From assembly GCA_044358465.1 (NCBI GenBank), contig JBIKNT010000001.1:1-26793 (forward strand): a stretch of DNA of 26,793 bases. The letters are read 5' to 3'. The DNA comes from Ilumatobacteraceae bacterium. GTDB lineage: Bacteria > Actinomycetota > Acidimicrobiia > Acidimicrobiales > Ilumatobacteraceae. Made by a program: the position numbers and the translations under genes. The notes under the pieces are model-generated. The model made no database searches. It saw only the letters and a program-made list of their open reading frames with translations, and was not told the DNA's origin. Shown one piece after another: positions 1,909 to 25,306 of the stretch (position 1 is its first letter; each line of letters begins with the position of its first letter).

Positions 1909-2502
1909 ATGGACGTCTTCGATGCAATGAACACCGCTCGTGCAATGCGCTTTTTTAAGCCCGACCCCGTGCCGAGTGAACTCATAGAAAAGGTGTTGTG
2001 GGCCGCCACCCGCGCCAGTAGCCCAAATAACACACAAGGCTGGGATTTCATTGTGGTCACCGACCCCGAAGTTCGCAAGCAACTCGGCGCACTCTTTTTG
2101 CCTTTTGCCGAACGTGTTTCCAAATTTCCCGACCCCGGCAACGACACCGACCGACGCACATTAAAAGGCGCGCAAAACCTCGGCGCCAACATGGGAAATT
2201 TCCCATGCATCATTTTTGTTTGTGGTCGCAACATTTACCCTGCCGACAACCCACGTGAACCGTTCATGTATTCAGCGGTGTACGCCGCAAGCCAAAACCT
2301 CATTGTTGCTGCGCGCGCACTGGGTTTGGGCGCAGCCTTCACCACTTTGCACGGAATGGTGGAAGCACAAATTCGTACCATCTTGAATATTCCCGATGAA
2401 ATGTACATCGGCACCACTATTCCCCTTGGCTATCCCGATGGTCCAGAAGGCCCCGTGTCGCGCAAAGATATTTCTGAGGTTGTGCACTACAACGGTTGGT
2501 AA
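1909..2502 (+). CDS. Nitroreductase family protein
   Basis: MDVFDAMNTARAMRFF...AATRASSPNNTQGWDFIVV and AASQNLIVAARALGLGA motifs. Start reassigned to ATG 1909. Confidence 0.9.
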   Translation: MDVFDAMNTARAMRFFKPDPVPSELIEKVLWAATRASSPNNTQGWDFIVVTDPEVRKQLGALFLPFAERVSKFPDPGNDTDRRTLKGAQNLGANMGNFPCIIFVCGRNIYPADNPREPFMYSAVYAASQNLIVAARALGLGAAFTTLHGMVEAQIRTILNIPDEMYIGTTIPLGYPDGPEGPVSRKDISEVVHYNGW

Positions 2503-2506
2503 ACCT

Positions 2507-3022
2507 TTAAGCGCCTGGCGCACTCAACACGGTGCGTTCCATTTCTTCTGGCTCACAGCCCGTCACAATGAGCAACTTGCTAAATCCGTGAAAGAGAGCC
2601 AGTCCAATTCCCATTTCGACAATTTGTTCTGTCGTGAACTCTTTTTTCATTTCTACTTGCACATCGGGCGCCGGTGCACCTTGCGCACCGAGGAATGCGT
2701 CGGCAAAAGCTAGAGCTAGTTTTGAGCGCTGTGGCAAGTCGGTGTCGTCGTAGCCATCGTCAACTTTTTCCACATCGTCTTCCACCATGTTTTCTTGCTT
2801 CACGACCGTGAAGCGCACATTGCGTCAATAACCACAATCGGTAATGCGGGCATTACGTAAGCGCGTGGTTTCTTTGGTGATGTGGTCAAGTTCGCCACGT
2901 TGCCAAAATTCGGCGTACAGAGTAGAGAATGCTTTGGCGAGTTGCGGTTGATGTCCGAGAATAGAACCAAACACTGAACGCGCAGTGGGGTCGACGGGGT
3001 CAAGGCGTGGAGTACTCGACAT
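2507..3022 (-). CDS. AhpD/carboxymuconolactone-decarboxylase-like protein with in-frame TGA (probable selenocysteine, CxxU motif), 171 aa
   Basis: ORFs 2825..3022 and 2507..2818 share a frame and are separated by one TGA (2825-2827), reading KETTRLRNARITDCGY-U-RNVRF. This is the AhpD-like CxxC position, and a SECIS-like hairpin follows. Confidence 0.8.
2797..2814 (-). other. Putative bacterial SECIS element (GCUUCAC-GGUC-GUGAAGC)
   Basis: 7-bp perfect stem with GGUC apical loop. The stem begins 11 nt after the UGA. The loop is the same as in the E. coli fdhF SECIS (GCA-GGUC-UGC). Confidence 0.72.
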
Positions 3023-3438
3023 CAGGCGACCTTTTCCAATTTTCCAAAGCCATCACACAGAGCAACATGGAACAACATCGCCAAAATATCGGGAGTAGAA
3101 AAATACTTTCTCAGCTTCTCAAATTGCTCGTCGGTGACGCTGTGTACGTCGAGTACGAACTGTTCAGTGATTTCTAAAATTGCTTTTTCGCCATCGGTAA
3201 ATTCTGGCGACGAGTACCAGTTCTTTAACTTCTCACTCAGTGCGCTCTCAGCGCGTTCTAAGCCGAGCAACTGAGCAACTTGCAGTTCAATGAGGCTCGC
3301 TGTGCGACCTGGTGCCGTGCTACTCGCTTGGCCTCGTAATTCGTCGATGAAGGGTGCCAAATGGGTTTGGGCGCTGGCAATATCGGACGCATTCCACGCA
3401 CCGCTGACCCATGAGTTGCGACCTTCAATATTTGCCAC
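3022..3438 (-). CDS. AhpD/CMD-like paralog lacking the CxxC motif
   Basis: W..SPEFTDGEKAILEITEQF..D...VTDEQFEKLRKYFS C-terminal CMD-like signature. Its stop overlaps the next start (TGATG). Leaderless TAGGCT-6nt-GTG start. Confidence 0.7.
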   Translation of the reverse strand: MANIEGRNSWVSGAWNASDIASAQTHLAPFIDELRGQASSTAPGRTASLIELQVAQLLGLERAESALSEKLKNWYSSPEFTDGEKAILEITEQFVLDVHSVTDEQFEKLRKYFSTPDILAMLFHVALCDGFGKLEKVA

Positions 3439-3451
3439 TAGACAAGCCTAG

Positions 3452-4198
3452 ATGACTTCCACCACCCCCACTCTCGTTGCGGCTGCTGCTGCGCTCAATG
3501 CCTCAAAAATCTACGGAAAAGACGACAGTGAGGTGCGCGCCCTCGACGACGTCACAGTCGACTTTGCCGAGGGCCAGTTCACTGCCATCATGGGCCCCAG
3601 CGGCTCAGGCAAGAGCACACTCATGCATTGCCTCGCAGGGCTCGACACCCTCACCTCGGGCAAAGTGTTCGTTGATGGCACCGACTTGTCGGGGCTTAGC
3701 GACCGTGAACTCACTGTTTTGCGCCGTGAGCAAGTTGGCTTCATCTTCCAGGCCTACAACCTCATCCCTACGCTCACCGCGCTCGAAAACATCACGTTGC
3801 CACTCGACCTCGGAGGTGTTGACGTCGACCAAGTGTGGCTGAACGATGTAGTGCGCGCGGTCAAATTGGAATCGCGTCTCACACATCGCCCCAGTGAACT
3901 CTCTGGCGGGCAGCAACAACGCGTTGCAGTTGCACGTGCACTAGCAAGTCGCCCCAAAATTATTTTTGCCGACGAACCCACAGGAAACCTCGACAGCAGG
4001 TCGGGCGCAGAAATTCTCGCCTTTATGCGTCACGCTGTGAGCGACCTTGGGCAAACCATTGTGATGGTGACCCACGACCCTGTTGCTGCTGCGTATGCCG
4101 ACCGTGTTGTTTTTCTTGCCGACGGAAAAGTTGTTGATGAAGTGACCTCACCAACAAGTGAGCAAGTGCTCGACCGCATGAAGAAACTCGGGTCGTAA
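3452..4198 (+). CDS. ABC transporter ATP-binding protein (LolD/MacB-like)
   Basis: Walker [25 protein letters not shown] signature, [12 protein letters not shown] and VTHD. Confidence 0.95.
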
Positions 4199-4200
4199 CA

Positions 4201-6765
4201 GTGTCTTCACCCGTCATACGCCTTACTTTGCGCGGCGTACTTGCCCGTAAGTTCCGCATTATTCTCACCGTGTTCGCCATTGTGAGTGGAGTTGCGTTTG
4301 TTTCTGGTGCCTTCATGCTCACCGACAGTGTGAAGACCGCAATCAACAGTCTTTTTGAAGAACTGCGCGGCGACATTGCTTTAGAAGTGCGTGCCCCTAT
4401 TGCTTTTGGCGATGAGGCCACTGCGCAGCGTGACCCTGTTCCCGCTGCACTTGTTTCTGGCATCGCTGCAGTTCCTGGCGTGAGTTCAGTGGAAGTCAAC
4501 ATCATTCGCGAGTCCACCATCGTGAAACCCGATGGTAAACCGCTGAGAACTTCTGGCCCCGCTTTTGGCATTTCCTGGTTGGGTCAAGACGGCCTAGACG
4601 GACGCACCATGCTTGAAGGACGCGAAGCTCGCGGCCCTGGTGAAGTTGCTATCGACAAGGCCTCTGCTGAGCGTGCAGATTATGTTCTGGGCGACACCGT
4701 CACCATTGTTGGGCCCACCGGCAAGGGCGAATTCACCCTTGTTGGACTCACCGGAACTGGCGACACTTCTGGCGGCGGAGGCGCAAGCGTGTGTGCATTC
4801 GACCCAGTAACGGCAAATACATTTCTCGGCGCAGAAGGTTTGGCCGACTCCATTTATGTTGGTCTTGAAAGCGGTGCTTCGCAAGCCACAGTTCAAGAGG
4901 CAATTGCATCCGTTATCACCACCAAATACGAGGTGATTCCAGGCGAACAGTCGGCGAAGGAAACTGCTGGTGCCATTAACGACATCATCGATATTTTTGG
5001 AAAACTCCTTTTAGGGTTTGCAGCTATCTCGCTTTTTGTGAGTGCATTTCTCATCTTTAATACTTTTGCCATCATCATTAGCCAACGCTTACGTGAACTT
5101 GCTTTGCTGCGTGCCATTGGAGCGAGTTCGCGTCAGATACGACTCATGATTTTGGGCGAAGCACTCATCATCGGAATCATTGCTACTGCCTTTGGTATCT
5201 TGGGCGGGGTTGGGGTGTCGAAAGGCATCACCGCACTCTTCAACGCCACTGGCGCCGCATTCCCGTCAGCCACCATCACTATTTCCACGCGCACCATCCT
5301 TGCGTCGCTCTTTGTTGGTATCGGCGTCACCGTCACGGCAGCAATGGTGCCTGCCTTGCGAGCCAGCAAAATTCCTCCAGTTGCCGCTATGCGCCCCGAG
5401 ATTGGTTTCACCGCCTTACAGCGCAGTAAACGCCTGTTTGCGGGCGCTGCGACGTTGGTTGCCGCTATCGCACTGCTATGTATTGGTCTCTTCGTTCAAC
5501 CAGGCGGAGCAATTGGCATCCTTGGCGCAAGCGGACTCGGAGCCATCTTGTTGTTCCTGGGCGTCGCAAGTTTGTCCACCTCATTTGCTGCCCCCATGAG
5601 CGCAGCAATTAGCCGCGTATTGCCCTTCCCGCTTCGGCCAATGACACGTTCCGTCGCTGGTCGACTCGCGAGTCGTAATGCTCAGCGCACTCCACGCCGC
5701 ACGGCAACCACAGCTTCAGCACTCATGATTGGTCTTGCAATGGTCAGCACCGTTGCTGTCATTGCGGCCTCAGTACAGAAGTCGTTCCGTGATCGTTTGC
5801 AAGGTTCCGTGACAGCCGACTACTTCGTCACAAGCGACGGCTTCCAAGGCTTGCCACCAGCGTTCGGAGAAAAACTCGCTGCTCTTCCCGAGCTTGGCGA
5901 AGTGTCGCCGTTTCGCGCATCTACTGCGCAAATCAACGGGGAGTCAAAGCAAATTGGTGCGGTGAACGTGGACATGGGCGACATCGTGAACGTCAAACTC
6001 ACCTCGGGAAATTTTGCAGCACTAGGCAAAGGCCAGATACTGGTGCACCGCGACCCCGCTCGCGACCTTGCTCTCTCTGTGGGAAGTTCGGTTGCAGTGA
6101 CATGGCAAAACGGCACCACCACTAATCTCACTGTTGGCGGTGTCTACGACGACTCGTCTATAGCTGGCAACTGGCTCGTCAGCCTCGATGTTCTGAGCAA
6201 AGCTTCTACCGCCCCGCCCGTTGACTTTTTCATCGGCGCAATCATTGCCGATGGAGTCAGCATTGAATCTGCTCGTGCTGCGGTCGACAAAGTCGCTGAA
6301 GAATTTCCAAGCGCCCTGGTTCAAGACCAAGCCGAGTTCCAAAAGAGCCAAGAAGACCAGCTCAACCAGCTGCTTTTCATTGTGTATTGCCTGCTCGTAT
6401 TCGCCATTGGCATTGCTGTCTTAGGCATTGCAAACACGATGGCGCTCTCGGTTTACGAGCGCACTCGCGAGTTCGGACTCTTACGTGCAGTTGGCATGAG
6501 CAAACGGCATCTCAAGCGCTCTGTGCGTTGGGAAGCCATCATCGTTTCTGTCTTTGGTGCAACATTGGGCATCGCTGTCGGAGTTCCGTTAGGTATTGCC
6601 GTTTCTATTGCGCTTCCTGAATCATTTGTGAATGGCATCAGCATTCCTTTTGACACCATTGTGGTTGTGCTTCTTGCATCCATTGTTGTTGGCATCATCG
6701 CCGCCATTGGGCCAGCGCGTCGTGCCGCAAAACTCAATGTCCTTGAAGCAATTTCTGCCATCTAA
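4201..6765 (+). CDS. FtsX/MacB-like ABC permease with duplicated domain architecture
   Basis: Two FtsX repeats (QRLRELALLRAIGA; ERTREFGLLRAVGM) with large extracytoplasmic loops, directly after the ATPase. Confidence 0.92.
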   Translation: MSSPVIRLTLRGVLARKFRIILTVFAIVSGVAFVSGAFMLTDSVKTAINSLFEELRGDIALEVRAPIAFGDEATAQRDPVPAALVSGIAAVPGVSSVEVNIIRESTIVKPDGKPLRTSGPAFGISWLGQDGLDGRTMLEGREARGPGEVAIDKASAERADYVLGDTVTIVGPTGKGEFTLVGLTGTGDTSGGGGASVCAFDPVTANTFLGAEGLADSIYVGLESGASQATVQEAIASVITTKYEVIPGEQSAKETAGAINDIIDIFGKLLLGFAAISLFVSAFLIFNTFAIIISQRLRELALLRAIGASSRQIRLMILGEALIIGIIATAFGILGGVGVSKGITALFNATGAAFPSATITISTRTILASLFVGIGVTVTAAMVPALRASKIPPVAAMRPEIGFTALQRSKRLFAGAATLVAAIALLCIGLFVQPGGAIGILGASGLGAILLFLGVASLSTSFAAPMSAAISRVLPFPLRPMTRSVAGRLASRNAQRTPRRTATTASALMIGLAMVSTVAVIAASVQKSFRDRLQGSVTADYFVTSDGFQGLPPAFGEKLAALPELGEVSPFRASTAQINGESKQIGAVNVDMGDIVNVKLTSGNFAALGKGQILVHRDPARDLALSVGSSVAVTWQNGTTTNLTVGGVYDDSSIAGNWLVSLDVLSKASTAPPVDFFIGAIIADGVSIESARAAVDKVAEEFPSALVQDQAEFQKSQEDQLNQLLFIVYCLLVFAIGIAVLGIANTMALSVYERTREFGLLRAVGMSKRHLKRSVRWEAIIVSVFGATLGIAVGVPLGIAVSIALPESFVNGISIPFDTIVVVLLASIVVGIIAAIGPARRAAKLNVLEAISAI

Positions 6766-19963: not shown

Positions 19964-20068
19964 CCTCAAGTTAACTGTGACTTGTCACCACAGATCTTCA
20001 GACAAAGATTCTGTTTTGTTCACCTAAGCGAGGGGAATCTGTCATACGAGTTTCTTAACTTCACCTTC

Positions 20069-21274
20069 GTGACAAAACACCACCACATCCCAAAACTCCG
20101 CCTCCTAGCAGCGGCAACGGTTCTCGTAGCCGGTTCACTGCTCAGCGCATGCGGCAGCGATAGTTCCACATCCGACTCCGAGACAACAGTTGACACAGCA
20201 ACTATTGAGAGCACACTCGACACACTGGCTGAAGATTCGACAGAGGTTGCGGCCGATTGCCCAGCCGAAGACATCGTCTCTGCAGCTAATGCAGAGGCAA
20301 AAGTGAACCTCATTGCTCTTCCCGACAACTGGGCCAACTACAAAGGTATTTTGCAAGCATTCCGCGACAAGTACCCTGAAATTGAAAACCCAGTAGCAAA
20401 CCCAGATGCTTCTTCAGCAGACGAACTCACCGCTGTGAAAACACTTGCTGGACAAGACGATATGCCAGACAACCTCGACGTAAGCCCAGCAATTGCTCAA
20501 CAAGTAACTGAAGAAAACCTTTGGGAGCCATACAAGCCTTGCTTGTGGGATGAAATTCCAGAGACCCTCAAAGATCCAAATGGCAACTGGGTTGCGGCCT
20601 ACTACGGCATTATGGCAATTGGTTCGAACTCAAAAATTGTTACCGAGGCTCCAACTTCTTTTGCAGATCTGAAGGATCCAAAATTCAAGGGCCAAGTGTC
20701 ACTCAATGGTGACCCACGTGAAGCTGGTGCAGCATTTGCAGCAGTAATGGCCGCATCACTGGCCAATGGTGGTTCATTCGACGACATTCTTCCAGGCATT
20801 GAATACTTTGCCGAGTTGAAGAAGTCTGGCAACCTCACCGGTACCGACGTAACTGAAGCAACAGTCTTGTCTGGCGAAACGCCAATCTGGATTGACTGGA
20901 CCTACAACTACCCAGGTCTCGCTCCAAAACTCGCGGAGAACGGCATCGAAGCATCTATCAATGTTCCTACAGACGGTGTTTATGGTGGCTACTACGCACA
21001 AGGCGTGGTAAAAGCCAGCCCACACCAAAATGCAGCGAAATTGTGGATTGATCACATCATTTCTGATGAGGGTGCACTCGGCTACATCGAAGGTGGCGCT
21101 GTTCCAGCCCGCTACGACGCACTTGTGAAGGCCGGAAAAGTTTCTGAAGAGATGAAGAAGAATCTTCCCGCTCCAGAACTCATCGCATCCATTGCATTCC
21201 CAACTCAAGATCAAATTGCAAAGGCAAAAGATGTCTTGACAGCTCAATGGGGCACACTTGTCGCCAATGGCTGA
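20069..21274 (+). CDS. ABC importer substrate-binding lipoprotein (AfuA/PotD/PhnS-like class)
   Basis: Signal peptide with lipobox LSAC, acidic S/T linker, ALPDNWANY and GGYYAQGVVKASPHQNAAKLW. Start reassigned to GTG 20069 (TAACTT-7nt-GTG). Confidence 0.88.
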   Translation: MTKHHHIPKLRLLAAATVLVAGSLLSACGSDSSTSDSETTVDTATIESTLDTLAEDSTEVAADCPAEDIVSAANAEAKVNLIALPDNWANYKGILQAFRDKYPEIENPVANPDASSADELTAVKTLAGQDDMPDNLDVSPAIAQQVTEENLWEPYKPCLWDEIPETLKDPNGNWVAAYYGIMAIGSNSKIVTEAPTSFADLKDPKFKGQVSLNGDPREAGAAFAAVMAASLANGGSFDDILPGIEYFAELKKSGNLTGTDVTEATVLSGETPIWIDWTYNYPGLAPKLAENGIEASINVPTDGVYGGYYAQGVVKASPHQNAAKLWIDHIISDEGALGYIEGGAVPARYDALVKAGKVSEEMKKNLPAPELIASIAFPTQDQIAKAKDVLTAQWGTLVANG

Positions 21275-21290
21275 TAAGTAACTACAACTC

Positions 21291-22217
21291 ATGACCCTTA
21301 CAGAAAACATGAGTTTGGGTCACTCAGATCCGAGGGGGGGTTCGCATATGCGGACCCCCCTTCAACGTTTCCTGCCACTGAAAAAATTTAAACCGATCGC
21401 CTTGTTTCCTTTTTTTGGATTCGTCTTACTCTTTTTGGTTTGGCCTGCAATTTCTCTATTTCGACTTGCGATTCAACCCACAAAAGACTCCGATATCAGT
21501 GCAATGCGTGAAGCAATTACTGGCGACTACCTCGATTCATTCATTTACACCATCAAACTAAGCGTGTTAACCGCACTCCTTGGCGTTCTCTTGGGCTCAC
21601 TTCTTGCCGCGTCAGTAATGCGTATTGAACGACCAAAATGGTTTCGTAATTTCATGACTAGCTTTGCTGGAGTTGCGGCGAATCTTGGTGGCATTCCGCT
21701 TGCATTCGCCTTTATTGCCGCCCTCGGCACACAGGGTCTCATCACCAAAATGATTGACTATTTTGGAATCAACCTCGCAGATGCAGGATTTCGTATTTCA
21801 AACTTTGCTGGCATCACTATTGTCTATTTGTATTTTCAAATTCCGCTGATGTTTCTCATTATGGTTCCGGCATTCAACGGGCTTCGTGCTTCTTGGAGTG
21901 AAGCTGCAGCAAGCCTTGGTGCCGCTCCTTGGCAATACTGGCGCTACGTAGGGCTACCACTCCTCACTCCTGCATTGCTTGGAGGTTTTCTTTTGCTCTT
22001 TTCCAATGCATTCAGTGCCTATGCCACGGCATATGCGCTTTCATCTGGTGGAGCTCGCCTAGTACCAGTGCAAATTCGTTTCTTTCTACAAGGAAATACC
22101 ATCACTGGAAAAGACAATTTGGGTTACGCGCTTGCTGCGTGGATGATCATCATCATGCTCATCACCATGACGGGCTACTTGTTCATTCGACGCCGTGCAG
22201 AAAAATGGCAACAATGA
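21291..22217 (+). CDS. ABC importer permease (PotB-like)
   Basis: Six TM segments and EAA loop WSEAAASLGAAPWQYWRYV. Confidence 0.9.
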   Translation: MTLTENMSLGHSDPRGGSHMRTPLQRFLPLKKFKPIALFPFFGFVLLFLVWPAISLFRLAIQPTKDSDISAMREAITGDYLDSFIYTIKLSVLTALLGVLLGSLLAASVMRIERPKWFRNFMTSFAGVAANLGGIPLAFAFIAALGTQGLITKMIDYFGINLADAGFRISNFAGITIVYLYFQIPLMFLIMVPAFNGLRASWSEAAASLGAAPWQYWRYVGLPLLTPALLGGFLLLFSNAFSAYATAYALSSGGARLVPVQIRFFLQGNTITGKDNLGYALAAWMIIIMLITMTGYLFIRRRAEKWQQ

Positions 22218-23044
22218 AGTTCATTGGCAAAATATGGCCCCGACTCTACATCGCAATAGCGATTGTGTTTTTTGTTGCTCCGCTCTTGTCAATGGCTCGC
22301 TTTGCATTTCAACGCATACCCGTGATCTCTCTCGGGAGAGAAAACTTGTTCAAACGCTGGACCATCGACGGACTTCTCACAACATTGCGCGACCCTGAAT
22401 TTTCTCACTCTCTCTCGGTGAGCCTGAAGGTTGCATTCTTCACAGTAATTGTGTTGCTCTTCCTGATGGTTCCCACAACGTTGTGGGTGCATTTGTCGGC
22501 ACCACGCTGGCGTGGAGTTGTAGAAACTGTGACAATTCTCCCCTACGTTGTTCCACCAATTGCATTGGTTGTAGGCGTGAGTGGCACATACAGGTCTATT
22601 GCACCATGGTTTTTGGCAAGTAATTACTCGCTTGTCCCCTTCTACGCGATTCTTGCCATGCCATTTACATTCCGATCGCTCGATGTTGGCATTAAGGCAC
22701 TCGACTTGCGCACTTTGGTTGATGCCGCCAAGTCTCTTGGTGCTTCATCTTCTCGTGTGATGTGGAATGTTCTACTTCCCAACCTACGCACGAGCCTTAT
22801 CAATGCGGCATTTCTCACAATTACAGTAGTGCTCGGTGAATTCACCATCGCATCACTTCTTTTGAAGCGAACACTCCCGATGTACATGGCTCAAGCACAA
22901 GGCCGTGAGCCACAGGGAGCCTTAGGTCTTGGCCTCTTCATTCTCGTTCTCACAACAATCTTGTTCACATTGGTCAGCATCATTCGTAAAAAAGATTCAA
23001 AAAGTATCGACGTGAAAAACATTAATGTTGGGATGGTTCCATAA
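22214..23044 (+). CDS. ABC importer permease (PotC-like)
   Basis: Start at ATG 22214 (ATGA overlap with the previous stop). EAA loop LVDAAKSLGAS and LGEFTIA. Confidence 0.9.
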   Translation: MKFIGKIWPRLYIAIAIVFFVAPLLSMARFAFQRIPVISLGRENLFKRWTIDGLLTTLRDPEFSHSLSVSLKVAFFTVIVLLFLMVPTTLWVHLSAPRWRGVVETVTILPYVVPPIALVVGVSGTYRSIAPWFLASNYSLVPFYAILAMPFTFRSLDVGIKALDLRTLVDAAKSLGASSSRVMWNVLLPNLRTSLINAAFLTITVVLGEFTIASLLLKRTLPMYMAQAQGREPQGALGLGLFILVLTTILFTLVSIIRKKDSKSIDVKNINVGMVP

Positions 23045-24000
23045 TGAGTGCTCTTGATTTTGTCAAAGTCAGTAAATCTTTTGGCGAAGTGCAAGCGCTT
23101 GTCGATTTCTCCATTTCGTTAGAGCAAGGCGAGCTCGTCTCTCTACTCGGACCGAGTGGATGTGGAAAAACAACCGCTCTACGCATTGCAGCAGGATTCG
23201 AGATTGCAGACTCAGGATCCATTCATCTTGAATCAACGAACATCATCGGACTTCCAGCAAACGAACGCAAGATGGGCATGGTGTTTCAGAGCTACAGCCT
23301 GTTTCCCCACCTCAACATTAGAGACAACGTGGCTTTTGGGCTCAAGGTCCGCGGAGTGCGCAATGAAGAACGAAAAAAGCGAGCTGGGGAGATGCTAGAT
23401 CTCGTCCGTTTATCTGATTTAGGGCATCGCATGCCTCACCAGATCTCTGGAGGCCAGCAACAACGCGTCGCTCTGGCAAGGGCTCTTGCTACACAGCCCC
23501 ACGTATTACTTCTCGATGAGCCGCTCAGCGCTCTAGATGCAAAGATTCGTGTAGAAGTGCGTGATGAGATTCGTCGTCTGAACAGAGACCTCGGTGTCAC
23601 CACAGTCTTTGTTACACATGACCAAGATGAAGCAATGAGTATCTCCGATCGCATTTGTGTGATGAATAACGGAAAAATCGAGCAAATTGGTAGTCCGCGC
23701 GATGTTTACAACGCTCCTGCTACTCCATTTGTTGCCCATTTCGTGGGAAGCATCAATTCTCTTCCTGTTGGAGATACCCGTGTTCTCATTCGCCCAGAGA
23801 ACTTAGAATTAGTGAATCCCGATGCCAGCGCCCAATGGTGTGGGACCATTACAGACATCACGTTCGTGGGTGCATTCACGAAGATTTCAGTACTTTTGGA
23901 CGATCAAAAAATCACAATGTCGGTTCTTACAATCTCTGCACAATTTGAACATCATCTATCCATAGGAGCAAATGTGGGAATAATTGAGAGGAAATCATGA
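23044..24000 (+). CDS. ABC importer ATP-binding protein (PotA/AfuC-like)
   Basis: [43 protein letters not shown], short C-terminal TOBE-like region. Confidence 0.95.
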   Translation: MSALDFVKVSKSFGEVQALVDFSISLEQGELVSLLGPSGCGKTTALRIAAGFEIADSGSIHLESTNIIGLPANERKMGMVFQSYSLFPHLNIRDNVAFGLKVRGVRNEERKKRAGEMLDLVRLSDLGHRMPHQISGGQQQRVALARALATQPHVLLLDEPLSALDAKIRVEVRDEIRRLNRDLGVTTVFVTHDQDEAMSISDRICVMNNGKIEQIGSPRDVYNAPATPFVAHFVGSINSLPVGDTRVLIRPENLELVNPDASAQWCGTITDITFVGAFTKISVLLDDQKITMSVLTISAQFEHHLSIGANVGIIERKS

Positions 24001-24758
24001 GACTCTCCGCAGAACAACTCGAACATTTTAATTACAGAGGCTGGCTCCTCGTCGACACACTTTCCGCAGCCGAAACTTCTGAAGTCCAAAGTTGGGTAAC
24101 CGATATCGCCTCATGGGCTGACGACAACGGTGAATGGTTGCATTACAAGGAGCTCACTGAATACGGTCCAAAACTTTGCAGAACGGAAAACTTCACTCCG
24201 TTTCATGCCGGCATGCATCAGTTCCTTCGCAGTGGCCAAATGGTTGAGGTTGCTTCTGCGCTGCTCAACAGCGAAGCCGTTCTCTATAAAGAAAAGATCA
24301 ACTACAAACTTGCAGGTGGTGCCGGATACTCCCCGCATCAAGATGCGCCGGCTTACCGCTTTATTGAAACTCACATTTCATGCATGATTGCCGTTGACGA
24401 TGCCACCGAGGAGAATGGATGTCTTGAAGTCGTTTCTGGGCTCCACCACGAAATTCTTCCTATGGACGCCAAGGGTTGTATTGAACCCTCACTCGTAGCC
24501 ACTTTTCACTGGATGACCGTTCCTTTACGAGCTGGCCAAACCTTGTGGTTCCACTCGCGCACTCCACACCGCAGCGGGCCGAATAATTCGCAGAATGATC
24601 GACGCGCTCTATATCCCACCTATAACGCCCTCAGCGAAGGTGACCTACGTAGTCGCTACTACGAGCAAAAACTCAAAGAGTTCGCTGAAGCAAAAGACAA
24701 TAACGAATCTGTACGTGTATCACTTATTGGAGATTTTGAAGGGAAACCCGTTCAATGA
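23997..24758 (+). CDS. phnY: Phytanoyl-CoA dioxygenase family Fe(II)/2-oxoglutarate dioxygenase, PhnY-like
   Basis: KEKINYKLAGGAGYSPHQD (HxD), ENGCL and PHRSGPN. Adjacent to a PhnZ-like gene. Confidence 0.75.
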   Translation: MRLSAEQLEHFNYRGWLLVDTLSAAETSEVQSWVTDIASWADDNGEWLHYKELTEYGPKLCRTENFTPFHAGMHQFLRSGQMVEVASALLNSEAVLYKEKINYKLAGGAGYSPHQDAPAYRFIETHISCMIAVDDATEENGCLEVVSGLHHEILPMDAKGCIEPSLVATFHWMTVPLRAGQTLWFHSRTPHRSGPNNSQNDRRALYPTYNALSEGDLRSRYYEQKLKEFAEAKDNNESVRVSLIGDFEGKPVQ

Positions 24759-25306
24759 ATGAAATCATTCAACATATTCACCATCTATACAGCCAATTTG
24801 GCAATCAAAAATACGATGAGTTAATTACCCAAACTGAACATGCAACCCAGTGTGCAGCACTGGCAAAAGCGTCAGAGGCCAGCCCCGAGCTCACCATCGC
24901 CGCGCTCTTGCATGACGTTGGCCATCTCTTGGTTTTGGAGCAAAGCAATGGTTCAGTTGATTTCAGTACCGATGATGAACACGAAGCACTTGGAGCGCGA
25001 TACCTTGCAACACATTTCCCTAGCGGGGTTACCGCGCCAATTGCGTTACACGTTGCTGCAAAACGTTTCCTGTGCACTGCAGACGACACCTATTTTGATC
25101 AGCTTTCTATCGGATCTGTTCGCAGTCTAGAAAAGCAAGGCGGTCGTATGACTCATCAAGAAGTCATGCGCTTCGAGCGCTCTCCGCATTTTTCTAATTC
25201 GGTGCAACTACGTCGCTGGGACGAAGGGGCAAAAGATGAACACATCGTTGTTGATCCATTTGAGTCATACCTTGAAATGATGGAGCACATCGTTACTTCA
25301 AAGTGA
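24755..25306 (+). CDS. phnZ: HD-domain di-iron oxygenase, PhnZ-like (C-P bond cleavage)
   Basis: TQTEHATQCA, ALLHDVGHL, HEALGA, LHVAAKRFLC, SLEKQGG and LRRWDEGAK, all typical of PhnZ/TmpB. Confidence 0.85.
   Translation: MNEIIQHIHHLYSQFGNQKYDELITQTEHATQCAALAKASEASPELTIAALLHDVGHLLVLEQSNGSVDFSTDDEHEALGARYLATHFPSGVTAPIALHVAAKRFLCTADDTYFDQLSIGSVRSLEKQGGRMTHQEVMRFERSPHFSNSVQLRRWDEGAKDEHIVVDPFESYLEMMEHIVTSK

What the first reader, a model, noticed from the sequence alone, without database searches (positions are those of the whole stretch)
20069..25306. AfuA/PotD-class ABC importer in one coupled operon with phnY-phnZ: phosphonate scavenging without PhnCDE or C-P lyase
Seen: SBP, two permeases, ATPase, PhyH-type dioxygenase and HD oxygenase are co-oriented, with ATGA/TAATG overlaps at 22214, 23044, 23997 and 24755. 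The block looks more AT-rich than the core genes. Known: PhnY hydroxylates 2-aminoethylphosphonate (or methylphosphonate for PhnY*), and PhnZ cleaves the product to Pi plus glycine (or formate) without releasing methane. 2-AEP importers of the PhnSTUV/AepXVW type belong to this transporter class. Inference: a transporter likely to be annotated as polyamine/iron is really a phosphonate importer, possibly a new actinobacterial SBP clade. The substrate is not determinable from sequence by eye.
Basis: partly seen in the sequence, partly recalled or inferred. Interest (0 to 1): 0.62.

Follow-up and report, generated by a model that had tools for sequence, protein, structure and literature searches.

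The report
Phosphate-starvation operon: ABC importer plus PhnY/PhnZ
A freshwater actinobacterium (Ilumatobacteraceae) carries a six-gene operon, apparently switched on by phosphate starvation, that joins a common but uncharacterised ABC importer to the known PhnY/PhnZ enzymes that oxidatively cut carbon-phosphorus bonds; the pathway is known, and the join is specific to this genus.

Summary
Six co-oriented genes at 20069-25306 encode a lipoprotein SBP (PF13343), two permeases, an ATPase, a PhyH-type dioxygenase and an HD oxygenase, with ATGA/TAATG overlaps exactly where stated.

The two enzymes are credible PhnY/PhnZ-type C-P oxygenases with all metal ligands present. The operon has a PHO-box-like promoter like the one at this genome's own pstS. 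The C-P lyase/phnD island of sister species is cleanly missing at its syntenic site.

Of the 80 closest SBP loci (53-96% identity), only the four from this genus carry phnYZ. The rest are stand-alone four-gene importers, some in complete genomes with no PhnZ, PhnJ or PhnX. Elsewhere in the order phnYZ stands alone. One sister genome has deleted the ABC genes but kept the promoter and phnYZ.

More distant SBP relatives (35-46%) sit beside PbfD-type oxidase, PhnX-like hydrolase and a metallophosphoesterase.

Best reading: a Pho-regulated organophosphorus importer family that this genus fused to phnYZ. The ligand is unproven; an aminophosphonate such as 2-AEP is favoured. This is a new variant of a known kind, of moderate interest.

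The parts
20018..20050 (+). PHO-box-like operator: three 11-nt units, GTTCACCTAAG / CGAGGGGAATC (degenerate) / TGTCATACGAG, lying where a -35 element would be
   Evidence: Sequence. This genome's pstS carries GTTCACCTGAT GTTCATCTGCT GTTCGTTCATC. TTCAC...GTTCAC at the same 22-nt spacing and the same distance from the start codon is kept in the diverged genus subclade, where the surrounding sequence no longer aligns. Tandem GTTCAY repeats occur upstream of SBP orthologues in 9 of 69 loci, against 0 of 3858 background windows.
20056..20061 (+). -10-like hexamer TAACTT, 7 nt before the GTG start; implies a leaderless or near-leaderless mRNA
   Evidence: a TAnnnT hexamer is kept at the same place in relatives (TATTTT, TACTTT, TACCTT). 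No Shine-Dalgarno sequence lies next to the start. Metatranscriptome contigs of three runs begin at 20090/20091 and none extends upstream; this is only a weak hint.
20069..21274 (+). Lipoprotein substrate-binding protein, 401 aa, PF13343 (SBP_bac_6), in an uncharacterised 5T1P-like clade
   Evidence: The AF2 model has pLDDT 86.6. The best solved match is C. jejuni 5T1P (TM 0.91, 31% identity), followed by binders of G6P, PLP and fructose-6-P and by STM0429.
21291..22217 (+). ABC permease 1 (BPD_transp_1)
   Evidence: conserved next to the SBP in about 70 loci.
22214..23044 (+). ABC permease 2 (BPD_transp_1); its start overlaps the permease 1 stop (ATGA)
23044..24000 (+). ABC ATPase with C-terminal TOBE_2 domain; best NCBIfam model is PhnT2 (376 bits, below the 458 cut-off)
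23997..24758 (+). PhnY-type Fe(II)/2-oxoglutarate dioxygenase (PhyH family), 253 aa; H114-x-D116...H191 triad, R202/R203
24755..25306 (+). PhnZ-type HD-domain diiron oxygenase, 183 aa; ligands H29, H53, D54, H76, H99, D156; H57; loop Y20-D21-E22
   Evidence: PMC8177086.

Best explanation
This is a single phosphate-starvation (Pho) operon of a small-genome freshwater Ilumatobacteraceae bacterium. A PhoP-type regulator is inferred to bind the GTTCACC-type box at 20018-50 and to drive a leaderless transcript from about 20069. The lipoprotein SBP captures a small organophosphorus compound outside the cell, and the two permeases and the ATPase import it. PhnY, an Fe(II)/2-oxoglutarate dioxygenase, hydroxylates the carbon bound to phosphorus. 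PhnZ, a mixed-valent diiron HD oxygenase, then cleaves the C-P bond to release phosphate without methane. The most likely substrate is 2-aminoethylphosphonate or a close aminophosphonate, which would give glycine plus Pi; methylphosphonate, giving formate plus Pi, is the main alternative. In evolutionary terms the operon is a genus-specific fusion of two modules that are independent elsewhere: an Acidimicrobiia-wide, PHO-box-controlled four-gene ABC importer of unknown ligand, and the two-gene phnYZ pair. Shown here: gene content, coupling, conservation, metal-ligand residues, the motif and its recurrence, and the modular distribution. Inferred: regulation by PhoP, the ligand of the SBP, and the substrate of PhnY/PhnZ.
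For: Enzymes. PhnY hits PF05721 and the only PhnY-type NCBIfam model (278 bits). PhnZ scores 203 bits on TIGR03276, 11 bits under the cut-off, and matches TmpB (6NPA) and PhnZ (4MLM) at 1e-29 and 1e-24 with every iron ligand present.

Coupling and conservation. Overlapping stop/start codons; the same six genes at the same site in 11 further same-genus genomes or contigs.

Pho control. The box resembles the one at this genome's pstS and is conserved in position across the genus. GTTCAC occurs in 32 of 69 orthologue upstream regions against 6.5 expected. Tandem 11-nt repeats occur in 9 of 69 against 0 of 3858 background windows. In G018 a deletion removed the four ABC genes but kept this promoter fused to phnYZ.

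Family context. SBP relatives at 35-46% identity are followed by a TIGR03767-like metallophosphoesterase (11 of 24 loci) and by a TIGR03364 (PbfD-type AEP/N-methyl-AEP oxidase, PMC10590968) plus a TIGR03351 PhnX-like hydrolase or a PhnZ-like HD protein.

Fold. After 5T1P, the nearest solved structures bind glucose-6-P, fructose-6-P or PLP, or are STM0429.

Glutamate. The loop Glu that contacts the substrate's amino group in PhnZ and TmpB is kept as E22.

In situ. Contigs from lake and river metatranscriptome libraries cover the SBP gene and phnY/phnZ at 95-100% identity, but not the flanking MFS, DUF3054 and ApbE genes.
Against: The closest orthologous transporters are overwhelmingly unlinked to phnYZ: about 70 of 80 loci.

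SBP and PhnZ do not co-occur above background in the order. 11 of 36 SBP-positive genomes have PhnZ, against 91 of 351 overall. 25 of the 36 have neither PhnZ nor PhnJ.

G041 (100% complete, SBP 67-72% identical) has no PhnZ, PhnJ or PhnX.

phnYZ-linked SBPs are not resolved as one clade. They differ from unlinked orthologues at only about three folded-domain positions, so nothing points to a specialised pocket.

G018 keeps phnYZ without the importer.

Homologues in other phyla sit in unrelated contexts, for example next to an RpiR/MurR regulator in S. meliloti.

No characterised PhnY, PhnY*, PhnS or AepX sequence could be brought into a tree, so the substrate is not assigned.

The window's own box is a 22-nt-spaced variant with a degenerate middle unit. 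Regulator binding is untested.
Confidence: 0.58

Rival explanations
1. Regulatory hitch-hiking. The importer's real ligand is a phosphoester or another organophosphate, for example phosphoethanolamine, a glycerophosphodiester or a sugar phosphate. phnYZ was inserted behind it only to borrow its Pho-controlled promoter, and the phosphonate enters the cell by another route.
For: Orthologous importers are almost always stand-alone and occur in genomes with no known C-P cleaving enzyme. Some are followed by a metallophosphoesterase. G018 kept the promoter and phnYZ after deleting the importer. There is no pocket signature specific to phnYZ-linked SBPs. The nearest characterised folds bind sugar phosphates or PLP. 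Stand-alone phnYZ pairs elsewhere in the order show no obvious PHO box, so joining this operon would supply Pho control.
Against: Family members at 35-46% identity sit directly beside aminophosphonate-specific genes: PbfD-type oxidase, PhnX-like hydrolase and a PhnZ-like HD protein. This genome has no PhnD-type or other recognisable phosphonate importer. The operon is kept intact in most genus members that have it.
Confidence: 0.25
2. Same operon logic, but the substrate is methylphosphonate (PhnY*-type hydroxylation to hydroxymethylphosphonate, then formate plus Pi), as in Gimesia maris and Prochlorococcus MIT9301.
For: The only NCBIfam model that recognises the dioxygenase is the G. maris methylphosphonate hydroxylase (278 bits). 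The habitat is lake water, where methylphosphonate turnover is discussed. Sister species also carry C-P lyase, so methylphosphonate is plausibly available to this lineage.
Against: 278 bits is far below the 500-bit equivalog cut-off, and every family member tested scores 190-260 bits, so the hit is family-wide rather than specific. The Glu that binds the substrate's amino group in PhnZ and TmpB is retained. The phosphonate neighbours of the SBP family are aminophosphonate enzymes.
Confidence: 0.15
3. The transporter is what automatic annotation calls it, a spermidine/putrescine or ferric-iron importer, and its adjacency to phnYZ has no functional meaning.
For: JGI names it 'putative spermidine/putrescine transport system substrate-binding protein'. 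PotD and FbpA-type structures appear among the fold matches.
Against: The PotD model scores 17 bits against a 582 cut-off. PHO boxes at the promoters of many orthologues fit phosphorus acquisition, not polyamine or iron uptake. Stop/start overlaps join it to phnYZ. PotD and FbpA rank below the organophosphate binders in the fold search.
Confidence: 0.03

Closest known systems
PhnY*/PhnZ oxidative 2-AEP pathway of marine fosmid HF130_AEPn_1 (McSorley 2012; PhnZ structures 4MLM, 4N6W)
   Same: A PhyH-family 2OG dioxygenase is immediately followed by an HD diiron oxygenase. The H...HD...H...H...D ligands, the H62 equivalent (H57) and the substrate-contacting Glu are all present.
   Different: The phmmer match to PhnZ is only 89 bits. 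The Tyr of the gating loop lies 2 residues, not 3, before the Glu (Y-x-E rather than Y-x-x-E), a trait shared by all Acidimicrobiales homologues examined. The substrate is untested.
GmPhnY*/GmPhnZ1 (Gimesia maris) and Prochlorococcus MIT9301 PhnYZ with PtxABC: methylphosphonate oxidation (PMC6581173, PMC10574752)
   Same: The same two-enzyme chemistry, co-located with an ABC importer and linked to phosphate limitation.
   Different: NF052437 scores 278 against a 500 cut-off and NF052439 scores 170 against 300, so these are not equivalogs. The transporter here is a PF13343 SBP system, not a PhnD/PtxB-type one.
TmpA/TmpB (Leisingera caerulea; 6NPA)
   Same: TmpB is the best solved sequence match of the HD protein (105 bits).
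   Different: From memory, TmpA is not a PhyH-family enzyme, whereas the partner here is PhyH/PhnY-type. The TmpB model scores 150 against a 300 cut-off.
2-AEP ABC importers with PF13343 SBPs: PhnSTUV, PhnS2T2U2 (TIGR03261/2/5, named beside Phn-HD TIGR03276), AepXVW and AepSTU (PMC8316502)
   Same: The same Pfam family, the same ABC architecture, and adjacency to C-P cleaving genes. The ATPase is closest to PhnT2.
   Different: The SBP scores only 39-56 bits on the PhnS/PhnS2 models (cut-offs 310-395). It has two separate permeases rather than the 546-position PhnU2 model. It is a Gram-positive lipoprotein. Its relationship to AepX and AepS could not be tested because no reference sequences were available.
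Campylobacter jejuni putative periplasmic SBP, PDB 5T1P (uncharacterised)
   Same: The closest solved relative by sequence (148 bits) and by fold (TM 0.91).
   Different: 31% identity, and no ligand or function is on record in what I could read. It therefore does not inform specificity.
PbfD-PhnX aminophosphonate clusters (PMC10590968)
   Same: The sister subfamily of this transporter in Acidimicrobiales is followed by TIGR03364 (PbfD-type) and TIGR03351 (PhnX-like) genes.
   Different: Those clusters use the hydrolytic route through phosphonoacetaldehyde. The window uses the oxidative PhnY/PhnZ route, and its SBP is only 35-46% identical to theirs.

Membership tests
PhnY/PhnY* (PhyH-type phosphonate alpha-hydroxylase) | PhyH (PF05721) fold with the H-x-D...H iron triad and an Arg that binds 2-oxoglutarate | tested here: met
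   PF05721 scores 86 bits against a cut-off of 22. H114, D116, H191 and R202/R203 were located. The HxD stretch aligns to the iron site of solved PhyH-type enzymes.
PhnY/PhnY* (PhyH-type phosphonate alpha-hydroxylase) | Encoded immediately upstream of a PhnZ-type HD oxygenase | tested here: met
   ATGA overlap at 24755. The pair is conserved across the order.
GmPhnY* methylphosphonate hydroxylase equivalog (NF052437) | Score above the curated cut-off of 500 bits | tested here: not met
   278 bits. Five other family members score 190-260 bits, so the hit is family-level only.
PhnZ (HD-domain mixed-valent diiron oxygenase; TIGR03276) | H...HD...H...H...D diiron ligands plus the catalytic His after the HD dyad | tested here: met
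   H29, H53-D54, H57, H76, H99 and D156.
PhnZ (HD-domain mixed-valent diiron oxygenase; TIGR03276) | Score above the TIGR03276 cut-off (214.6 bits) | tested here: not met
   202.9 bits. Only 2 of 91 hits in the order pass the cut-off, so the model is narrow for this lineage.
PhnZ (HD-domain mixed-valent diiron oxygenase; TIGR03276) | Y-x-x-E gating loop (Y24/E27 in PhnZ, Y30/E33 in TmpB; PMC8177086) | tested here: inconclusive
   The Glu is in register (E22, 7 residues before the first His). The Tyr is one residue closer, giving Y20-D21-E22. The same holds in 10 other Acidimicrobiales homologues.
PhnZ (HD-domain mixed-valent diiron oxygenase; TIGR03276) | Releases Pi from an (R)-1-hydroxyalkylphosphonate | not testable with these tools
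   Needs an enzyme assay.
PhnS / PhnS2 2-AEP binding proteins | Score above the equivalog cut-offs (NF011620 310; TIGR03227 395; TIGR03261 393) | tested here: not met
   55.7, 52.7 and 39.4 bits.
PF13343 (SBP_bac_6) class of SBPs | Pfam domain and type-II periplasmic binding fold | tested here: met
   77 bits against a cut-off of 24.6. AF2 model pLDDT 86.6; TM 0.72-0.91 to solved members.
AepX / AepS 2-AEP binding proteins (Murphy 2021) | Clusters with characterised AepX or AepS in a phylogeny; nanomolar 2-AEP binding | not tested
   No AepX or AepS sequence could be obtained by reference. The S. meliloti homologue found (about 40% identity) sits next to an RpiR/MurR regulator and no phn genes appear in the 8-kb flanks.
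Actinobacterial Pho regulon | PHO box (11-nt direct repeats of GTTCACC type) overlapping the -35 region | tested here: inconclusive
   The motif is present and positionally conserved. It matches the box at this genome's pstS and is enriched upstream of orthologues. However, the window's copy has a degenerate middle unit, and binding and induction are untested.
PotD / FbpA (the automatic annotation) | Equivalog score | tested here: not met
   PotD NF007048 scores 17 bits against a cut-off of 582.

The most novel reading that the evidence does not exclude
The 5T1P-like SBP clade defines a previously unrecognised, Pho-regulated (amino)phosphonate or phosphonoester uptake family, distinct from PhnD, PhnS and AepX/AepS, that is widespread in freshwater and soil Acidimicrobiia. 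Different lineages have plugged it into three alternative C-P cleaving modules: PhnY-PhnZ; PbfD plus a PhnX-like hydrolase, with or without a possibly secreted metallophosphoesterase; and an HD oxygenase alone. On this reading, abundant acIV-type lake Actinobacteria would be substantial phosphonate consumers that do not produce methane.
Probability: 0.3. Interest if true: 0.6.

Novelty: new variant of a known kind. Interest (0 to 1): 0.4.

Why it matters
Oxidative C-P cleavage by PhnY/PhnZ and 2-AEP uptake through PF13343 transporters are both established, so the pathway logic is not new. Three things are added here.

(1) A large, uncharacterised SBP family, routinely mislabelled as polyamine transport, carries PHO boxes across Acidimicrobiia. 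It is repeatedly found next to phosphonate or phosphoester enzymes, which makes it a concrete candidate for a new organophosphorus importer in abundant lake bacteria.

(2) There is a clear natural experiment within one genus. The same chromosomal site is empty, holds phnYZ only, or holds importer plus phnYZ, and a C-P lyase island is present or absent elsewhere. Lake time-series data could exploit this to ask which phosphorus-scavenging kit pays off under which conditions.

(3) Phosphonate use in this organism should yield no methane, which bears on freshwater methane-paradox budgets.

None of this is surprising to a specialist until the ligand is measured.

Tried and rejected
(a) Substrate assignment by phylogeny against characterised PhnY, GmPhnY*, MIT9301 PhnY, PhnS and AepX. 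No reference sequences were reachable. The Gama 2019 paper and PMC3986159 are not held. Cluster names for 10 PhnY-family representatives were all generic 'phytanoyl-CoA dioxygenase'.

(b) Using the 278-bit NF052437 hit as evidence for methylphosphonate. Rejected, because five other family members tested score 190-260 bits.

(c) Low GC as evidence of horizontal acquisition of the block. Rejected, because the flanking genes are equally AT-rich and PhnY's nearest relatives are in the same order (60-64% identity).

(d) Identity and function of 5T1P and STM0429 from the literature. No paper found. My recollections that STM0429 is PhnS and that the C. jejuni protein may be a Pho-regulated gene are untested leads only.

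(e) PHO boxes upstream of stand-alone phnYZ pairs in eight other Acidimicrobiales genomes. None was evident by eye.

(f) Internal promoters or terminators in the block. Nothing above chance.

(g) A residue signature separating phnYZ-linked SBPs from unlinked ones. Only about three folded-domain positions (E104, K205, I340), so no case for a changed pocket.

(h) Monophyly of phnYZ-linked SBPs. Unresolved in a quick tree; the careful search did not finish.

(i) Parts of the operon without metatranscriptome contigs (permeases, ATPase). These say nothing about expression.

(j) Earlier notes of this scan. None concerns this locus.

Full report
**1. What is there**

The window is a whole 26.8-kb contig (C211) of a 1.74-Mb metagenome-assembled genome that is 83% complete. 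Source names of near-identical proteins and of related contigs place it in Ilumatobacteraceae (Acidimicrobiia). At least sixteen lake-water metagenome runs hold the stretch almost completely.

Between 20069 and 25306 lie six co-oriented genes:
- a 401-aa lipoprotein SBP (GTG start; lipobox LLSAC, with the Cys invariant in 41 homologues; PF13343);
- two BPD_transp_1 permeases;
- an ABC ATPase with a TOBE_2 tail;
- a 253-aa PhyH-family dioxygenase;
- a 183-aa HD-domain protein.

Consensus scans find no internal promoter or terminator above chance.

The block is AT-rich: 48.2% GC against 52.4 +/- 1.3% genome-wide, in the lowest 0.5% of windows. The neighbouring MFS, DUF3054, ApbE and FMN-binding genes are equally AT-rich, so composition does not delimit an island.

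**2. The enzymes**

The dioxygenase carries the H114-x-D116...H191 triad and R202/R203. It hits only one phosphonate-related NCBIfam model, the G. maris methylphosphonate hydroxylase, at 278 bits against a 500-bit cut-off. Five other members of the same family score 190-260 bits on that model. The hit therefore shows family membership, not substrate. A full-library search finds only 158 clusters (at 50% identity) with E <= 1e-30, so the family is compact.

The HD protein scores as follows:

| Model or structure | Score (bits) | Cut-off |
|---|---|---|
| TIGR03276 'phosphonate degradation HD-domain oxygenase' | 203 | 214.6 |
| GmPhnZ1 model | 170 | 300 |
| TmpB model | 150 | 300 |
| TmpB structure (6NPA) | 105 | n/a |
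| PhnZ structure (4MLM) | 89 | n/a |

All diiron ligands (H29, H53, D54, H76, H99, D156) and the His after the HD dyad (H57) are present.

In PhnZ and TmpB a Y-x-x-E loop gates the active site, and its Glu hydrogen-bonds the substrate's amino group (PMC8177086). Here the Glu is in register (E22), but the Tyr is one residue closer (Y20-D21-E22). Ten other Acidimicrobiales homologues share this Y-x-E form. I read the pair as genuine PhnY/PhnZ-type C-P oxygenases of a separate clade (confidence about 0.85). The retained Glu leans towards an amino-bearing substrate.

**3. The promoter**

Upstream of the SBP start lie GTTCACCTAAG-CGAGGGGAATC-TGTCATACGAG (20018-20050), then TAACTT (20056-61), then 7 nt, then the GTG.

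The pstS gene of the same genome is preceded by GTTCACCTGAT-GTTCATCTGCT-GTTCGTTCATC. From memory, this is the classic actinobacterial PHO-box form of 11-nt direct repeats.

In the diverged half of the genus (SBP about 73% identical) the flanking sequence no longer aligns. Even so, TTCAC and GTTCAC remain 22 nt apart, at the same distance from a TAnnnT hexamer and from an ATG that aligns with the window's GTG.

Across the upstream regions of 69 orthologous SBP genes:
- GTTCAC occurs in 32, against 6.5 expected.
- Canonical tandem repeats such as GTTCACCGTCC-GTTCACCTGAT occur in 9 on the coding strand (13 on either strand), against 0 of 3858 background windows of the same loci.

These loci are related, so the counts overstate independence, but the pattern is clear. 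This transporter family is typically preceded by PHO boxes. The hexamer position implies a leaderless transcript. Contigs from three metatranscriptome runs begin at 20090/20091 and none reaches upstream, which is only a weak hint.

**4. Is the transporter tied to phnYZ?**

The answer is 'only in this genus'.

The best 80 are 53-96% identical and nearly all Acidimicrobiia. Only the four same-genus loci have phnY-phnZ after the ATPase, one of them (L060) inferred because its contig ends inside permease 2. About 70 others are stand-alone SBP-permease-permease-ATPase operons with no conserved neighbour.
- In an even sample of 351 genomes of the order, 36 have the SBP and 91 have a PhnZ-like gene. 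PhnZ occurs in 11 of the 36 (31%), against 26% overall. The two are adjacent only in this genome and in two genomes with a 38%-identical SBP.
- PhnJ occurs in 13 of the 351. 25 of the 36 SBP-positive genomes have neither PhnZ nor PhnJ.
- G041 is a 100%-complete genome of the same family with a 67-72% identical SBP. It also lacks phosphonatase.
- Conversely, phnYZ pairs in eight other genomes of the order stand alone, with unrelated neighbours and no nearby transporter of this type.
- A quick tree does not resolve the phnYZ-linked SBPs as one clade. They differ from unlinked orthologues at only about three positions in the folded domain.

**5. Polymorphism within the genus**

At the same chromosomal site (between DUF3054 and ApbE), G013 has nothing and G018 has phnY-phnZ only. 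Seven close relatives and five to six more distant ones have all six genes.

In G018 the PHO-box promoter is retained and is joined to the last ~15 nt of the ATPase gene (the phnY ribosome-binding site). G018 is therefore a deletion derivative of the six-gene operon that kept Pho-controlled phnYZ.

Four sister genomes that carry the operon also carry PhnJ (390-400 bits; split across two contig ends in G007, 346 and 76 bits), with PhnD a few kb away on the same contig. In the window's genome the two flanks of that 12.5-kb island lie 57 bp apart on contig C68. The absence of C-P lyase and PhnD here is therefore real for this strain, but it is not a lineage trait.

**6. What the wider family suggests about the ligand**

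The SBP is not a PhnS or PhnS2 equivalog (39-56 bits). Its nearest solved relative is the uncharacterised C. jejuni protein 5T1P (148 bits; TM 0.91). The next structural neighbours are V. cholerae VcA0625 (glucose-6-P), Salmonella STM0429, AfuA (hexose phosphates) and P5PA (pyridoxal phosphate). Polyamine, iron and citrate binders rank after these.

In the basal branch of the window-type clade, 8 loci have a TIGR03767-like metallophosphoesterase directly after the ATPase.

In the sister subfamily (35-46% identical), I examined 24 loci:
- 11 have that phosphoesterase close to the transporter (in 10 directly after the ATPase);
- 5 have a TIGR03364 FAD oxidase;
- 4 of those 5 also have a TIGR03351 PhnX-like hydrolase;
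- 2 also have a divergent PhnZ-like HD gene.

TIGR03364 is the family of PbfD, shown to oxidise N-methyl-AEP and AEP to phosphonoacetaldehyde (PMC10590968). Within Acidimicrobiales the family therefore keeps company with aminophosphonate and phosphoester enzymes.

In other phyla the contexts differ, for example an RpiR/MurR regulator in S. meliloti, and transposases or sugar genes in Deinococcota.

**7. Synthesis**

The best-supported picture is as follows. A Pho-regulated organophosphorus ABC importer, ancient and common in Acidimicrobiia, acquired the phnYZ pair at its 3' end in this genus. The result is a single phosphate-starvation transcript that imports a compound and oxidatively releases its phosphate.

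That the imported compound is the PhnY substrate is plausible. It rests on operon logic, on the absence of any other recognisable phosphonate importer in this genome, and on the aminophosphonate neighbours within the family. It is not demonstrated. The serious rival is that phnYZ merely borrowed the Pho promoter.

I put about 0.58 on the main reading, 0.25 on hitch-hiking, and very little on the polyamine/iron annotation. Within the main reading I favour 2-AEP or a close aminophosphonate (about 55%) over methylphosphonate (about 15-20%) or something else.

**8. Expression**

Contigs of three lake metatranscriptome libraries and one river library match the SBP gene (20090-21325) and parts of phnY and phnZ (23980-24152, 24410-24997, 25070-25215) at 95-100% identity. 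None covers the MFS, DUF3054 or ApbE genes. Contigs cannot show strand, level or ends, and RNA libraries can contain DNA. This is supportive, not conclusive.

**9. Novelty**

The chemistry and the general arrangement (ABC importer plus PhnY/PhnZ, used under phosphate limitation) are known (PMC10574752, PMC8316502, PMC6581173). New here are:
- the transporter partner, an uncharacterised and mislabelled SBP clade;
- its Pho-box signature across a class;
- its alternative catabolic partners;
- the three-state locus polymorphism.

I rate it a new variant of a known kind, with interest 0.4.

**Caveats**

- The genome is an incomplete MAG.
- Relatives are not independent.
- Motif matches do not demonstrate binding.
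- No characterised reference sequences could be included.
- The SBP tree is a quick search only.

Noticed in passing
G000 contig C68 about 2618-2675, compared with L137/L138 (G011:C21:16704-29205): A 12.5-kb island holding phnD and phnJ (C-P lyase) in a sister species is precisely absent in this genome. The two flanks lie 57 bp apart, so this is a clean presence/absence polymorphism.
   Followed up: partly
L139 (G013:C260) 2255-3438; L140 (G018:C60) 3215-5137: The site occupied by the operon is empty in G013 (DUF3054 abuts ApbE). In G018 it holds only phnY-phnZ behind the retained PHO-box promoter, with a remnant of the ATPase gene's 3' end. This is evidence for a deletion of about 3.9 kb that removed the ABC genes.
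   Followed up: yes
L161 8554-16000; L157 2264-10000; L122 12952-14508: Related transporters are followed by a TIGR03767-like metallophosphoesterase and, in some loci, by a PbfD-type FAD oxidase (TIGR03364) plus a PhnX-like hydrolase (TIGR03351). In L161 all seven genes lie on one strand. This looks like an undescribed importer-esterase-oxidase-hydrolase phosphonate cluster.
   Followed up: partly
window 24812-24820 (Y20-D21-E22 of the HD protein); alignment: All Acidimicrobiales PhnZ homologues examined have a Y-x-E loop instead of the Y-x-x-E loop of PhnZ and TmpB. The G352/G233-type HD proteins have F-G-E and lack the His after the HD dyad (HDLGW / HDVSW).
   Followed up: partly
L033 (G000:C273:3800-6240) 410-1910: The second-best tandem PHO box in the genome (GTTCACCAGAA-GTTCACCCAGG) precedes a fasciclin-domain lipoprotein, which is followed by a small 2OG-Fe(II) oxygenase. 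These are possibly further Pho-regulon members of unknown role.
   Followed up: partly
Proteins P0121, P0123, P0128, P0136, P0138, P0140 and others: Many PhnY-family representatives are 420-700 aa long, with the PhnY part at one end. This suggests natural fusions, possibly PhnY-PhnZ as in fungal PhoF. The other halves were not examined.
   Followed up: no
window 25293-25306: phnZ and the convergent ApbE gene overlap by 14 bp at their 3' ends, which leaves no room for an intrinsic terminator between them.
   Followed up: no
L057, L063, L066, L068, L059, L067 (record titles): Several public MAG records that carry this Ilumatobacteraceae-type locus are titled Bifidobacterium breve, Limnohabitans sp. 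or Acidobacteria bacterium. These look like mislabelled submissions.
   Followed up: no
L026 7185-9953 (G028:C99): In one soil-type Acidimicrobiales genome the orthologous transporter (61% identical SBP) is followed by a Rieske oxygenase and a PLP-dependent decarboxylase. This is a fourth and unexplained neighbourhood.
   Followed up: no
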